Shown piece after piece: positions 33,940 to 37,344 of a DNA stretch of 64,000 bases (within the stretch, counting starts at the first letter, position 1; every line of letters begins with the position of its first letter). This DNA is from Candidatus Micrarchaeota archaeon (GTDB lineage: Archaea > Micrarchaeota > Micrarchaeia > Norongarragalinales > Norongarragalinaceae). The position numbers and the translations under genes were made by a program. The stretch covers positions 8,861-72,860 of the forward strand of contig CAYOZI010000001.1 of assembly GCA_964408425.1 (NCBI GenBank). The letters are read 5' to 3'. A model generated the notes under the pieces. It saw only the letters and a list, made by a program, of their open reading frames with translations, made no database searches and had not been told where the DNA came from.

Positions 33940-36900
33940 TTAATCGAACTTCATTTCCAAACGCACTTTGCCCGTTCCCGCCGGAATCGTCTGGCCGATG
34001 ATTATATTCTCGGCTACTCCCTGCAGCGTATCCTCTTCCCCGTAAATGCACGCGTTCAGCAAATGCTTCGCCGTCTCCTCGAAAGCCGCCCTCGCGAGAA
34101 CGCTCTTCTTCTGCCCCGCCAAACCGTGCCTTCCAACGCTCTTCACCGCGCCCAAAAACGTCATCGCATCTGCAATGAGCATTATATGACGCGGGTCGAC
34201 AGTCAAATCCTGCATTTCCAAAACCTTGTTGATCTCCTGGATTATGGCGTTTCTCGCAGCATCAACTCCCAGCACTTCGTTGATTTCCATGATGTCGTTC
34301 GTAATGGTCCTGGAACCGTCGACCGCCTCTATCTTGAAAACTTCCTTCAAGTTCGAACCGTCCGAAGCAATCGTATACTCGCTCCCCCGTTCTCCCTTCT
34401 TTTCGACGATAATCGCCTTTCGTATTCCCTTTATTCCGCCCAAGTGGATTTCGCGGAAGCGGTTCGTCATCCTGCGAATGCTCTTCAAAGAATCTTCCTT
34501 GGTTTTGATCGTCAGTTCATGCCCTTCCTGCTTGAATTGGGGGGAAACTTTCGCTATTTCCGCAATCGCGTCCTTCTCCTTCACGTTGGAATCCTTGAAT
34601 TTCTGCGGGTCGAAAACGATATGCACGATCTTCCGGTCGAAATTCTCCTTGATTTCCGCAACGTCGTCAAGCGAAACCTCTTCAATGCCCGCCGCGATTT
34701 GTTTTACTTTCTCGAAATCGCCCGAAACGCTTTTCTTCAGGAAGATTTCCATGACCGGCTTTTTGGGCGATTTCCGCGCGTCAACCAATTCCACTAGCCG
34801 CGTAAACCCGAATTGCGCGAGAGAAGCGACTCCCGCGTAGTGGAAAGTCCTGAGAGTCATTTGCGTGCCCGGTTCCCCGATGCTTTGCGCTGCGACTACG
34901 CCGACAGGCTCTCCGTAAGCAATCGGTTTTCCGGTGGAAGGATCCAAACCGTCCCCGCCGTACTTGAATTGAATCAATTTTCCTTCGCTGTCTCGGACGC
35001 TCTGGTCTTCCCAAACAACGAAATCCTGAAGCGCGTTGATCAGCCTGCGCTGCATATAACCGGTCTTGGCCGGGTTGACTCCCTTGTCCACGACACTGTC
35101 ACGCCCTCCGGCAGCGTGGAAGAAGTATTCAACGACGCTCAACCCGCTCTTGTAATTGGAGCTGACGAAACCGCGGGCGTAATCGCTCAAATCCCCTCTC
35201 TTGAAATGAGTCAACAGCCTTCCCCTGTAACCCGATGCGGGGCGTTTTCCGCGAACCGCCTGCTGTCCTACGAGAGCCGCCATCTGGACTACGTTTATGG
35301 GCTTGTTCTTCACTCCCGCGGCGGCCATCAGCAAAGACGAATTGTTTTCCAAAATCTTTCCGTTGATGTTAACGGGCGTTTTCGAGATTTTTTCCTTTAC
35401 GATGCTCCAGCAGTGGAAGCGGATCAATTCGACGATGTTCATTACCTGCTCTTCAAGCGTTTCCTTCAAAGTCTTGCCCGGCAATCTTTCGAGTTTTTTT
35501 GTCTTGTATTTCTTCACGAGCTCTTCCAGCTTCCTCTTGCCCTCTTCGTACAAGGCGTTTATCTGGTCCACCGCCTCTCGAGGCAGGTAATAATCCTTTA
35601 AACTTAGTGAAAACCCGTAATCGTAAACCACTTGCACCGAAAGCTTCGCCGCCTTGTCTATATATTCTCTCGCAGCATCGCTTCCCAATTTCATAAAGAT
35701 TTCCTTCACGACCTTCCTGCTCGCGCTTGCATCTATAAACCCTTCAACCAGCCTTCCGTCCTTTATTTTAACGGCATTGTGCTTGCTCTCGATCTTGAAG
35801 TCGAATTCCTTCGGCAATATCAAAGAGTAAATTTCCTTTCCCGAAACCGTGTTCTTGTCGAAATCCGTCACCACGCCCGCCGAATTCAGCAAGTCGCAAG
35901 CTTCCTTCTTCGAAATGACGAAATCGTCCATAGAAAGCAAATACAATCCCGTAATCTGGTCCAGATCCGGCGTAACGAGCGGAGAGCCGTTGCGCGGCGA
36001 GAGGATGTTTTCCTGAACGCTCATCAGCAATTTCGCTTCAGTCTGAGCTTCCTCGGTCTGGGGAACGTGAATGTTCATTTCGTCCCCGTCGAAATCGGCG
36101 TTGTAAGGGTTGCAAACGGCAACGTTAAACCTGAAAGTCCTTCCGGGCAATACTTTTACCTCATGGCACATCATCGACACGCGGTGCAACGAAGGCTGCC
36201 GGTTGAACACGACGACATCGCCGTTCAACAACTGCCTTTCGAGAGTATAGCCCGGCGTGATTTCCGCCAAAACCTCTTCGATGTTCGTATCGGTCAGTTT
36301 CTTCCTTCTTCCGTCGGGGCGGATTACGTAATTGATCTTGTCCGAATGGGTTTTGATCATTTCCTTTACAGCTTCGAGATTCCACAATGTCACGCTAACC
36401 GGAAGAGTCAGTTCTGCGGCGATTTCTTCCGGAACTCCCAACTCATTTATTCCCAGCGTTGGATCGGGCGAAATGACCGTTCTCGCGGAAAAATTAACCC
36501 TCTTTCCGCTCAGGTTATAACGGAATCTCCCTTCCTTTCCTTTGAGCCTTTGGAATAAGGTTTTCAACTGCCTTCCCGAACGGTGGCGTGCCGGAGGAAT
36601 TCCGGCGCTTTCGTTATCAAAATAGGTAGTAACGTGATACTGCAGCAACTCCCACAAATCCTCGATGATCAGCTGCGGCGCTCCCGCTTCGATGTTTTCC
36701 TCAAGGCGTTGGTTTATGCGGAGGATATCCACCAGCTTATGCGTAAGGTCGTCTTCGCTTCTCTCTCCTGTTTCAAGCGTGATGGAAGGGCGGACGGTAA
36801 CCGGAGGAACGATCAAAACAGTCATTACAACCCATTCCGGGCGGATTGTTATTCTCGCTACTTTCAAATCCTCGTCCGGAATGTGCTCTAATCTTTCGCG

Positions 36901-37344
36901 TATTTCGTTCGGCAAAAGCTTCCTGTCCTCCTCGTAATAGCTCGTCGGCTTGGTGAATTTTATTTTATACTGCTTCTCCCCGCAATGCGGGCATTCAGAC
37001 GACCTTTTCATCTCGTCAAGTTCGCTGGACAAATGCATTATCCTCCCGCACTTCCTGCAGGAAGCTTTCAAAAGCTGGTAAACCAACTTCGCAAACCCGA
37101 CGTGAACAACCGGCCTGACCAATTCTATATGCCCGCTGTGCCCCGGACAGTCTTTCATCCTCCCTGCGCAAGTGCGGCACTTCAAACCCGGATCCACGAC
37201 TCCCAGCTTCTGGTCGGCCAACCCGCCGCCTATGGGATAGCCGTCCTCGTCGTAAGTGTCGGGAACGGTTATCTTGACCGCGCTCATCTTCCTGATGTTG
37301 TCAGGGGAAAAAATCGAAAACCCGATGCTTCCAACTATTTTCAT
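33940..37344 (-). CDS. rpoA: DNA-directed RNA polymerase subunit A: A' and A'' regions encoded in one continuous 1134-aa ORF (unsplit)
   Basis: N-terminal zinc-binding region, [14 protein letters not shown] catalytic loop, then without a stop ..[50 protein letters not shown] (trigger loop, normally in A'') and the A'' C-terminus ..[18 protein letters not shown]. Confidence 0.85.
   Translation of the reverse strand: [1134 protein letters not shown]

What the first reader, a model, noticed from the sequence alone, without database searches (positions are those of the whole stretch)
33940..37344. RNA polymerase subunit A is encoded as one unsplit 1134-aa ORF (A'+A'' fused), while rpoB remains split into B'' and B'
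In nearly all described archaea rpoA is split into A' and A'' just before the trigger loop. Here the reading frame runs straight through the usual split point: ..[49 protein letters not shown]... The protein is also shorter than A' plus A'' combined, so the enzyme is compact. This could be a lineage marker or a sign of a reduced genome.
Basis: partly seen in the sequence, partly recalled or inferred. Interest (0 to 1): 0.55.

Follow-up and report, generated by a model that had tools for sequence, protein, structure and literature searches.

The report
Fused, shortened RNA polymerase A subunit
This tiny groundwater archaeon (a Micrarchaeon) encodes the largest RNA polymerase subunit as one shortened protein instead of the usual two, a real trait shared by its whole clade and already seen in other archaea, so it is a useful lineage marker but not a surprise.

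Summary
Window 33940..37344 (-) is one uninterrupted 1134-aa ORF carrying every domain of archaeal RpoA' and RpoA''. Upstream, rpoB is split at the usual boundary into B'' and B', preceded by rpoH. The organism is a Micrarchaeon (DPANN), close to order Norongarragalinales.

It is not an artefact: three independent groundwater assemblies give the identical protein, and at least 75 public protein clusters share the architecture.

The fusion coincides with loss of about 75 residues around the usual split site. Eight residues (STGKPIAY) now link the last A' motif to the trigger-loop helix.

Other Micrarchaeota orders keep A' and A'' separate, with an equally truncated junction and only 1-24 nt between the two genes. 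Some relatives have fused rpoB as well. The sister lineage sampled, Iainarchaeum, is split with a full-length junction. The fusion is therefore secondary, and the state varies within the phylum.

Unsplit RpoA is already known in Thaumarchaeota, Aigarchaeota, Bathyarchaeota and Korarchaeota. A secondary fusion has been reported in Pacearchaeota. I found no paper describing the Micrarchaeota case.

Verdict: real, a clade marker, a new member of a known kind, modest interest.

The parts
33940..37344 (-). rpoA (Rpo1): single-chain fusion of A' and A'', 1134 aa
   Evidence: ORF list and translation. Pfam Rpb1 domains 1-5. PDB Rpo1N and Rpo1C both match the one chain. NCBIfam A' and A'' models both hit. 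AlphaFold2 model has pLDDT 77 and superposes on full-length Rpc1/Rpb1 with TM-score 0.77.
34915..34938 (-). Junction linker S803-Y810 (STGKPIAY). It replaces the roughly 75-aa segment that holds the A' stop and A'' start in other archaea.
   Evidence: DNA and codons read directly. Junction alignment of 36 taxa. Deletion of 73-77 aa after residue 803 relative to Methanoperedens, Archaeoglobus and Bathyarchaeota. Model pLDDT is 85-91 across residues 791-820.
36073..36102 (-). Catalytic metal-binding motif [10 protein letters not shown] (residues 415-424)
   Evidence: Translation. A416, D417, D419, G420, D421, E422, M423 and N424 are invariant across 56 homologues; N415 and F418 are nearly invariant.
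35029..35136 (-). Bridge helix (residues 737-772, includes TGYMQRRL)
   Evidence: Helix 737-772 in the model. G762, Y763 and R767 are invariant.
34795..34905 (-). Trigger-loop region (residues 814-850, [18 protein letters not shown]), directly after the junction
   Evidence: Helices 814-823 and 825-836, with a low-confidence tip at 834-843. Q820, S821, G823, E824, P825, T827, Q828, M829, F834 and H835 are invariant.
37369..39180 (-). rpoB' (C-terminal half of subunit B), 603 aa from Met
   Evidence: Pfam Rpb2 domains 4-7. NCBIfam TIGR03670 matched over positions 1-598 of 599. Gene calls of 603 aa on two of the three identical contigs, 593 aa on the third.
39186..40655 (-). rpoB'' (N-terminal half of subunit B), 489 aa from Met (the ORF extends to 40721)
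   Evidence: Pfam Rpb2 domains 1-3. NCBIfam B'' model NF007175 scores 640 bits against a cutoff of 355. Gene calls of 489 aa.
40756..40986 (-). rpoH (Rpo5), 76 aa, first gene of the cluster
   Evidence: ORF. Pfam RNA_pol_Rpb5_C, E = 8.6e-13. NCBIfam subunit H model, E = 1.8e-14 (53 bits, below the model's 83-bit cutoff).

Best explanation
The ORF encodes the complete catalytic largest subunit (Rpo1/A) of the RNA polymerase of a Micrarchaeon related to Norongarragalinales, made as one polypeptide.

Shown:
- All catalytic elements are present and conserved: the Zn-binding cysteines, [10 protein letters not shown], the bridge helix and the trigger loop.
- The gene sits in an rpoH-rpoB''-rpoB'-rpoA cluster.
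- The segment that surrounds the A'/A'' boundary in other archaea is absent. That segment is the last ~20-25 residues of A' plus the first ~50 residues of A''. It is the archaeal counterpart of the Pol II 'foot' region, which lies between the bridge helix and the trigger loop. Eight residues replace it.
- This architecture is fixed across a well-supported clade.

Inferred:
- The ancestor was split, as in Iainarchaeota, other DPANN and Euryarchaeota.
- The surface-exposed junction module shrank. This left A' and A'' as tightly coupled genes 1-24 nt apart, the state still seen in Fermentimicrarchaeales, Gugararchaeales and Anstonellales.
- A small indel that removed the stop codon then joined the frames.
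- The enzyme should work like any other archaeal RNAP. The fusion only enforces 1:1 synthesis and removes one assembly step.
For: Integrity and domains. Conserved catalytic residues.

Not an artefact: identical protein in three independent assemblies. At least 75 clusters have 57-62 aa between GYMQRRL and GEPGTQ.

Clade support: the fused-short forms make up one clade of 80 sequences (73 fused plus fragments) in the A''-part tree, with bootstrap 99 in the full-length tree.

Deletion mapped: Pyrococcus Rpo1N 879-907 and Rpo1C 1-60 are unmatched. 73-77 aa are missing after residue 803. See the junction alignment.

Split ancestry:
- Iainarchaeum, Parvarchaeota, one Woesearchaeote and all sampled Euryarchaeota are split with long junctions.
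- About 99 Micrarchaeota clusters are stand-alone A'' proteins with heads of only 15-35 aa, mostly 15-23.
- Their loci read rpoH-B''-B'-A'-A''-L30e-NusA-S12-S7.
- The A' stop and A'' ATG are 2-4 nt apart in L010 and L026.

Tendency to fuse: relatives L090 and L091 carry end-to-end fusions of rpoB at the usual boundary.

Model: the junction has pLDDT 85-91 and the whole chain superposes on single-chain Rpc1/Rpb1.
Against: Deep nodes inside Micrarchaeota are poorly resolved (bootstrap 11-48, NJ only). The order of events (shrink, then fuse) is therefore not proven.

Counting events on that tree favours one early fusion plus one later re-split over three or four independent fusions.

P0088, labelled Micrarchaeota, is fused with a full-length junction, which does not fit a simple 'shrink first' order.

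No protein-level evidence shows that the product stays a single chain. Function is inferred from conservation only. I could see only this window, not the whole genome, so a second rpoA copy cannot be excluded.
Confidence: 0.8

Rival explanations
1. The nature of the gene is the same, but the history differs. The fusion happened once, early, at the base of Micrarchaeota or of Micrarchaeota plus Altiarchaeota. The split-short clade (Anstonellales, Fermentimicrarchaeales, Gugararchaeales) re-split secondarily by a one-nucleotide frameshift upstream of an in-frame Met in the loose linker.
For: On the full-length tree, four fused groups are spread through the phylum and only one large clade is split: Micrarchaeales plus a second mid-junction group, P0089, P0088, and the fused-short clade. 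This gives 2 events against 3-4. Altiarchaeota are also fused with a short junction. The split locus L026 sits next to fused P0113 with bootstrap 100 and differs from an in-frame fusion by a single nucleotide, so fission here is mechanistically trivial.
Against: The split-short clade keeps the ancestral operon A'-A''-L30e-NusA-S12-S7-EF2, and its A' tail partly resembles the usual one. Linker lengths and sequences differ among the fused groups: 54-62, 64-73, and 65-96 aa. That fits independent events. rpoB fusions at the usual boundary clearly arose independently in two clades. The L026 split could be a sequencing error. The deep nodes have bootstrap 11-48.
Confidence: 0.3
2. The single gene is an ancestral, never-split rpoA of the kind found in Thaumarchaeota, Aigarchaeota, Bathyarchaeota, Korarchaeota and eukaryotes.
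For: It is one ORF, as in those lineages (PMC5484517; loci L002, L016, L017, L022, L029, L038).
Against: Those forms keep a 133-134-aa bridge-helix-to-trigger-loop segment. The window has 58 aa. The protein groups with Micrarchaeota, Iainarchaeum, other DPANN and Euryarchaeota, not with Bathyarchaeota or Nitrososphaerales. Its best solved-structure matches are the Thermococcales A' and A'' chains.
Confidence: 0.04
3. The fusion is an assembly or sequencing artefact (a hidden frameshift or chimera), or the gene is a decaying pseudogene.
For: The sequence comes from a metagenome. One relative (L026) differs from its fused neighbours by one nucleotide.
Against: Three independent assemblies give the identical 1134-aa protein. 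At least 75 clusters down to 57% identity keep the same frame and junction. All catalytic residues are invariant. The structure model is confident across the junction.
Confidence: 0.01
4. The fused gene was acquired horizontally from another DPANN or Altiarchaeota lineage that already had a short fused rpoA.
For: Short fused forms exist in Woesearchaeota (61 aa), Altiarchaeota (65-96 aa) and a MAG labelled Nanohaloarchaeota.
Against: The fused-short clade branches inside Micrarchaeota, not with Woesearchaeota or Altiarchaeota. The neighbouring rpoH, B'' and B' genes are in the same arrangement as in Micrarchaeota relatives.
Confidence: 0.03

Closest known systems
Canonical split archaeal Rpo1N/Rpo1C (A'/A''), e.g. 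Pyrococcus furiosus and Thermococcus kodakarensis RNAP (PDB 8cro, 4qiw)
   Same: Best sequence matches: 900 bits to Rpo1N and 278 bits to Rpo1C. Same domains and catalytic motifs, and the same operon start rpoH-rpoB-rpoA.
   Different: One polypeptide instead of two. It lacks Rpo1N residues 879-907 and Rpo1C residues 1-60, plus two smaller blocks. Total length is 1134 aa against 1304 aa.
Split-short rpoA'/rpoA'' of other Micrarchaeota (Fermentimicrarchaeum limneticum CP058998, Gugararchaeum adminiculabundum, Anstonellaceae)
   Same: Same phylum. The junction region is equally truncated, with an A'' head of mostly 15-23 aa. rpoB is split. The A'' part is 50-57% identical.
   Different: These keep a stop codon and a new ATG 1-24 nt apart. 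They retain L30e-NusA-S12-S7-EF2 downstream, which the window lacks.
Unsplit RpoA of Thaumarchaeota, Aigarchaeota, Bathyarchaeota and Korarchaeota (PMC5484517, PMC4084955)
   Same: A single gene for subunit A.
   Different: The full 133-134-aa junction segment is retained. Phylogenetically they are distant from the window protein.
Secondary fusion of RpoA reported in Pacearchaeota (Da Cunha et al. 2017, PMC5484517), and the Woesearchaeota single-chain Rpo1 PIN77526.1
   Same: A DPANN lineage nested among split relatives. The Woesearchaeota protein has an equally short junction (61 aa).
   Different: A different phylum and, on the tree, an independent event. Another Woesearchaeote is still split. 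I did not examine the Pacearchaeota junction itself, because the published figure is an image only.
Fused RpoA of Altiarchaeota
   Same: Fused A with split B'' and B', and a shortened junction.
   Different: The junction is 65-96 aa and keeps the ...EKA.VVPGEAVG end of the A'' head. L30e-NusA-S12 still follow the gene. It forms a separate clade with bootstrap 100.
Eukaryotic Rpb1 and Rpc1
   Same: Single-chain largest subunit. The model superposes with TM-score 0.74-0.77.
   Different: Eukaryotes have 236-255 aa (the foot domain) between the bridge helix and the trigger loop, against 58 aa here. The window protein has no C-terminal repeat domain.

Membership tests
Multisubunit RNAP largest subunit (archaeal Rpo1/A; Rpb1/beta' family) | Rpb1 domains 1-5 in the usual order | tested here: met
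   Pfam PF04997, PF00623, PF04983, PF05000 and PF04998, all above their cutoffs.
Multisubunit RNAP largest subunit (archaeal Rpo1/A; Rpb1/beta' family) | Catalytic [10 protein letters not shown] motif, Zn-binding cysteines, bridge helix and trigger loop | tested here: met
   Translation. Invariant columns include C56, C96, C99, C118, C121, D417, D419, D421, G762, Y763, R767, Q820-M829 (seven of these ten positions), F834 and H835.
Multisubunit RNAP largest subunit (archaeal Rpo1/A; Rpb1/beta' family) | Located in the rpoH-rpoB-rpoA gene cluster | tested here: met
   rpoH at 40756..40986, B'', B', then A.
Multisubunit RNAP largest subunit (archaeal Rpo1/A; Rpb1/beta' family) | Transcription activity as part of an assembled RNAP | not testable with these tools
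   Needs biochemistry. Only sequence conservation is available.
Canonical split A'/A'' organisation | Two separate ORFs, with a stop and a new start about 60 aa before the trigger loop | tested here: not met
   No stop or ATG at 34915..34938.
Canonical split A'/A'' organisation | NCBIfam equivalog models for A' and A'' each pass their cutoff | tested here: inconclusive
   A' (TIGR02390) scores 1087, above its cutoff of 1042.55. A'' (TIGR02389) scores 397, below its cutoff of 420.65, because model positions 1-40 are absent.
Ancestral-type unsplit RpoA (Thaumarchaeota, Aigarchaeota, Bathyarchaeota, Korarchaeota) | Single ORF | tested here: met
Ancestral-type unsplit RpoA (Thaumarchaeota, Aigarchaeota, Bathyarchaeota, Korarchaeota) | Full-length junction segment (about 134 aa between the bridge helix and the trigger loop) | tested here: not met
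   58 aa here, against 133-134 aa in Bathyarchaeota, Nitrososphaerales, Geothermarchaeota and Korarchaeota.
Ancestral-type unsplit RpoA (Thaumarchaeota, Aigarchaeota, Bathyarchaeota, Korarchaeota) | Phylogenetic affiliation with those lineages | tested here: not met
   The protein groups with Micrarchaeota, Iainarchaeum and other DPANN in the NJ tree.
Secondary (derived) RpoA fusion in DPANN, as reported for Pacearchaeota | Fused form nested among relatives that are split | tested here: met
   Iainarchaeum, Parvarchaeota and a large Micrarchaeota clade are split. Deep-node support is weak.
Secondary (derived) RpoA fusion in DPANN, as reported for Pacearchaeota | Same event or same junction as the Pacearchaeota fusion | not tested
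   Figure S29 of PMC5484517 is held only as an image. The Woesearchaeota P0123 junction is similar in length but lies in a different clade.

The most novel reading that the evidence does not exclude
In Micrarchaeota and neighbouring DPANN and Altiarchaeota lineages, the gene architecture of the two large RNAP subunits is labile. Both A and B have been fused, and possibly re-split, several times by single small indels. In this view, that lability became possible once the surface 'foot' module around the A'/A'' boundary was lost. The window's clade carries the shortest bridge-helix-to-trigger-loop junction seen here. If so, the split or fused state of RpoA is strongly homoplastic. It would not be a safe rare genomic change for rooting the archaeal tree, which is how it was used in PMC5484517.
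Probability: 0.5. Interest if true: 0.45.

Novelty: new member of a known kind. Interest (0 to 1): 0.3.

Why it matters
The split or fused state of RpoA has been used as a rare, near-irreversible character to argue where the archaeal tree is rooted (PMC5484517). In that paper, a single 'secondary fusion' in Pacearchaeota was treated as an exception.

This window and its relatives show otherwise:
- Fusions of A, and of B, recur within one DPANN phylum.
- One nucleotide can switch the state.
- About 75 residues around the boundary are dispensable.

That weakens the character as a phylogenetic marker. It also points to a naturally minimised archaeal RNA polymerase that could guide single-chain constructs for structural or biochemical work.

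There is a practical point too. Annotation pipelines label all these proteins 'subunit A'', so automated surveys would wrongly score A'' as missing in these genomes.

Tried and rejected
- My first motif regexes for the trigger loop were wrong and found nothing. They were corrected.
Half of the 80 loci returned were bacterial rpoC, so it gave only a thin, unsystematic archaeal sample.
- Searching with the A'' part alone returned no full-length fused proteins, not even the 100%-identical one. I suspect a bias in the word index. It cannot be used to compare the frequencies of fused and split forms.
- Eight literature searches found no paper naming a fused RpoA in Micrarchaeota or Altiarchaeota. 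Absence from this library is not proof that none exists.
- Figure S29 of Da Cunha et al. (the split-site alignment) is stored only as an image.
- No maximum-likelihood tool was available. The NJ trees leave deep Micrarchaeota nodes unresolved, so the direction and number of events could not be settled.
- Papers on archaeal RNAP structure did not state where the A'/A'' termini lie. The 'foot' assignment rests on alignment to Rpb1 (residue 803 aligns to Rpb1 876) and on textbook Pol II domain boundaries.
- Rejected: artefact, pseudogene, ancestral unsplit type and horizontal transfer (see the rival explanations).
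Full report
**1.

The ORF list gives 33940..37344 on the minus strand, 1134 aa, starting with ATG. Pfam places Rpb1 domains 1 to 5 in this one protein.

Against solved structures, residues 2-803 align to Pyrococcus Rpo1N 3-878 (of 907). Residues 809-1133 align to Rpo1C 61-386 (of 397). NCBIfam finds both the A' equivalog and the A'' equivalog in the chain. The A'' match covers only model positions 41-367 and falls just below its cutoff (397 against 420.65 bits). This probably explains why public annotations call all such proteins only 'subunit A''.

Upstream on the same strand lie:
- rpoB' at 37369..39180 (Rpb2 domains 4-7)
- rpoB'' at 39186..40655 (Rpb2 domains 1-3)
- rpoH at 40756..40986

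Both B halves match their NCBIfam models end to end, so the B split is at the usual boundary.

**2. It is not an artefact, and the organism can be named**

The identical 1134-aa protein occurs on three independently assembled groundwater contigs from PRJNA268031. Their gene neighbourhood matches the window.

A protein search returned 120 listed clusters. The nearest are labelled Micrarchaeota or Norongarragalinales, at 79-81% identity. NCBI places that order in class Micrarchaeia of the DPANN kingdom Nanobdellati.

**3. Anatomy of the junction**

I measured the distance from the bridge-helix motif (T/SGYMQRRL) to the trigger-loop motif ([10 protein letters not shown]).

| Group | Distance (aa) |
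|---|---|
| Window protein | 58 |
| Fused-short clade, about 75 related clusters | 54-59 (57-62 with the anchors used) |
| Woesearchaeota fused form | 61 |
| Micrarchaeales and a second mid-junction group | 64-73 |
| Altiarchaeota fused forms | 65-96 |
| Unsplit genes of Bathyarchaeota, Nitrososphaerales, Geothermarchaeota, Korarchaeota | 133-134 |
| Split archaea (equivalent distance across the two genes) | mostly about 124-160, up to about 285 |
| Pol II Rpb1-like proteins | 236-255 |

Relative to Methanoperedens or Archaeoglobus A' plus A'' (1260-1261 aa), the window protein lacks three blocks. These are 25 aa after residue 110, 14 aa after residue 524, and 73-77 aa after residue 803. The last block is the end of A' plus the head of A''. 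It is the segment that contains the stop and start codons in other archaea.

What remains is ...[33 protein letters not shown]..., encoded at 34915..34938 with no ATG or stop.

The AlphaFold2 model has mean pLDDT 77. Across residues 791-820 the pLDDT is 85-91. The model leads straight into the trigger-loop helices, and the whole chain superposes on single-chain Rpc1/Rpb1 with TM-score 0.74-0.77.

By position, the missing segment corresponds to the reduced archaeal counterpart of the Pol II foot region. Query residue 803 aligns to Rpb1 876. The foot-domain boundaries come from established knowledge of Pol II, not from a test here.

All catalytic residues are invariant across 56 homologues.

**4. 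Relatives show that the state varies inside the phylum**

Searching with only the A'' part (residues 805-1134) returned about 100 clusters of stand-alone A'' proteins, mostly 330-345 aa. Named examples are Fermentimicrarchaeum limneticum, Gugararchaeum adminiculabundum and Anstonellaceae. Their N-terminal heads are only 15-35 aa, mostly 15-23, compared with the usual 59-65 aa.

Their loci read rpoH-B''-B'-A' (837-875 aa)-A'' (332-345 aa)-L30e-NusA-S12-S7, followed by EF-2 in three of the four complete loci. A' and A'' are 1-24 nt apart. Two more Micrarchaeota genomes show TAA-AC-ATG and TGA-TGAT-ATG at the boundary.

By contrast:
- The window and P0027 (on a 1.3-Mb contig) have split B and fused A, and no L30e-NusA cluster downstream.
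- P0079 and a Micrarchaeales genome (P0087) have both B and A fused. The B halves are joined end to end at the usual boundary.
- An Altiarchaeote has split B, fused A and the L30e-NusA-S12 cluster.

**5. Phylogeny**

An NJ tree of the A'' part (235 sequences) puts the fused-short forms in one clade of 80 sequences (73 fused plus fragments). The split-short forms make another clade of 100, with the fused Micrarchaeales sequences as its sister.

A full-length NJ tree (48 taxa, 1113 columns, 200 bootstraps) gives the following:
- Micrarchaeota are monophyletic (bootstrap 66), next to split-long Iainarchaeum (bootstrap 45).
- The fused-short clade has bootstrap 99, with P0079 at its base.
- The split-short clade has bootstrap 99.
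- Micrarchaeales plus a second mid-junction fused group has bootstrap 90.
- Nodes linking these groups have bootstrap 11-48.

The unsplit proteins of Thaumarchaeota-type lineages lie elsewhere in the tree.

The fusion is therefore secondary relative to the archaeal split. The tree cannot say whether it arose once early (followed by a re-split) or several times.

Independent B fusions and the differing linker lengths favour repeated fusion. A simple count of events favours one fusion plus one fission. L026, a split locus, sits next to fused P0113 with bootstrap 100 and is one nucleotide away from an in-frame fusion. That shows either direction needs only one indel, though it could also be a sequencing error.

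**6. How it most likely works**

The product is the catalytic subunit of an otherwise ordinary archaeal RNAP.

Shown: complete domains and motifs, operon context, clade-wide conservation, and a confidently modelled short connection.

Inferred: the surface module carrying the boundary was dispensable and shrank. Afterwards, the two tightly coupled genes were joined by loss of the stop codon. The fusion guarantees equimolar synthesis and removes one assembly step, with no expected change in catalysis.

**7. Comparison with what is known**

Unsplit RpoA is documented for Thaumarchaeota, Aigarchaeota, Bathyarchaeota, Korarchaeota and Heimdallarchaeote LC3. A 'secondary fusion' is reported for Pacearchaeota, and 'most DPANN' are described as split (PMC4084955, PMC5484517, PMC5875737). 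A 2026 paper uses a single Woesearchaeota Rpo1 accession without comment. That accession falls in my fused cluster P0123.

I found no paper describing the Micrarchaeota or Altiarchaeota fusions, or the loss of the junction module.

The window protein fails the tests for the Thaumarchaeota-type unsplit form, on both junction length and phylogeny. It fits the 'secondary fusion in DPANN' kind, in a new phylum.

**8. Verdict**

The fusion is real, the protein is compact, and the trait marks a clade. It is common among close relatives and belongs to a known kind.

Interest is modest (0.3). The added value is the evidence that RNAP subunit architecture is homoplastic in DPANN, and that about 75 residues around the A'/A'' boundary are dispensable.

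Noticed in passing
window 19685..19798 (-) and 44885..45023 (-): Rfam tRNA matches of 114 and 139 nt (54.6 and 48.2 bits) that ARAGORN did not call. They are probably intron-containing archaeal tRNA genes.
   Followed up: no
window 33300..33940, downstream of rpoA: The RNAP cluster ends at rpoA. L30e-NusA-S12-S7-EF2 do not follow. Instead there are small unannotated ORFs (including a 63-aa hydrophobic, possibly membrane, ORF at 33646..33837) and an HD-domain protein (31820..33325). The same break occurs in relative L089. Split-A Micrarchaeota and an Altiarchaeote keep the full cluster.
   Followed up: partly
L090 2768..6004 and L091 2735..6004: Two Micrarchaeota relatives (P0079 from JGI 3300005573, and a Micrarchaeales MAG) have rpoB fused into one gene of 1078 or 1089 aa, joined end to end at the usual B''/B' boundary. 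Their rpoA is fused as well.
   Followed up: partly
protein cluster P0130 (14 members, 1428 aa; metagenome contigs of 5-17 kb): An unnamed lineage has B' fused to A' in one protein (Rpb2 domains 4-7 followed by Rpb1 domains 1-5). The protein ends at the usual A' C-terminus.
   Followed up: partly
proteins P0042, P0060, P0061, P0065, P0071, P0075, P0100: Fused RpoA homologues of 1608-1679 aa carry an intein with a LAGLIDADG endonuclease. In P0075 the alignment to the window protein breaks after residue 832, so the intein appears to sit inside the trigger-loop motif [13 protein letters not shown]. The others break at about 73% of the query.
   Followed up: partly
proteins P0403, P0409, P0412, P0415, P0420, P0424, P0426, P0429: Stand-alone A'' proteins of about 515 aa carry an N-terminal extension of roughly 130 aa with no Pfam match. 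Their lineage is unknown.
   Followed up: partly
L026 7290..7299 (JAJZJM010000005): This Micrarchaeota MAG has rpoA split as AAT TGA TGA T ATG. Removing one T would restore a fused frame like that of its nearest relative P0113. It is either a very recent fission or a sequencing error.
   Followed up: partly
window 43409..43990 (-) and 44046..44699 (-): Two adjacent paralogous ferric-reductase-like transmembrane proteins (Pfam PF01794) lie next to tRNA-Asp.
   Followed up: no
window 33940..37344 and public annotations of its homologues: NCBI and JGI name all these fused proteins only 'subunit A''. The A'' equivalog model misses its cutoff (397 against 420.65 bits) because model positions 1-40 are deleted. 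Automated surveys would therefore score A'' as absent in these genomes.
   Followed up: yes
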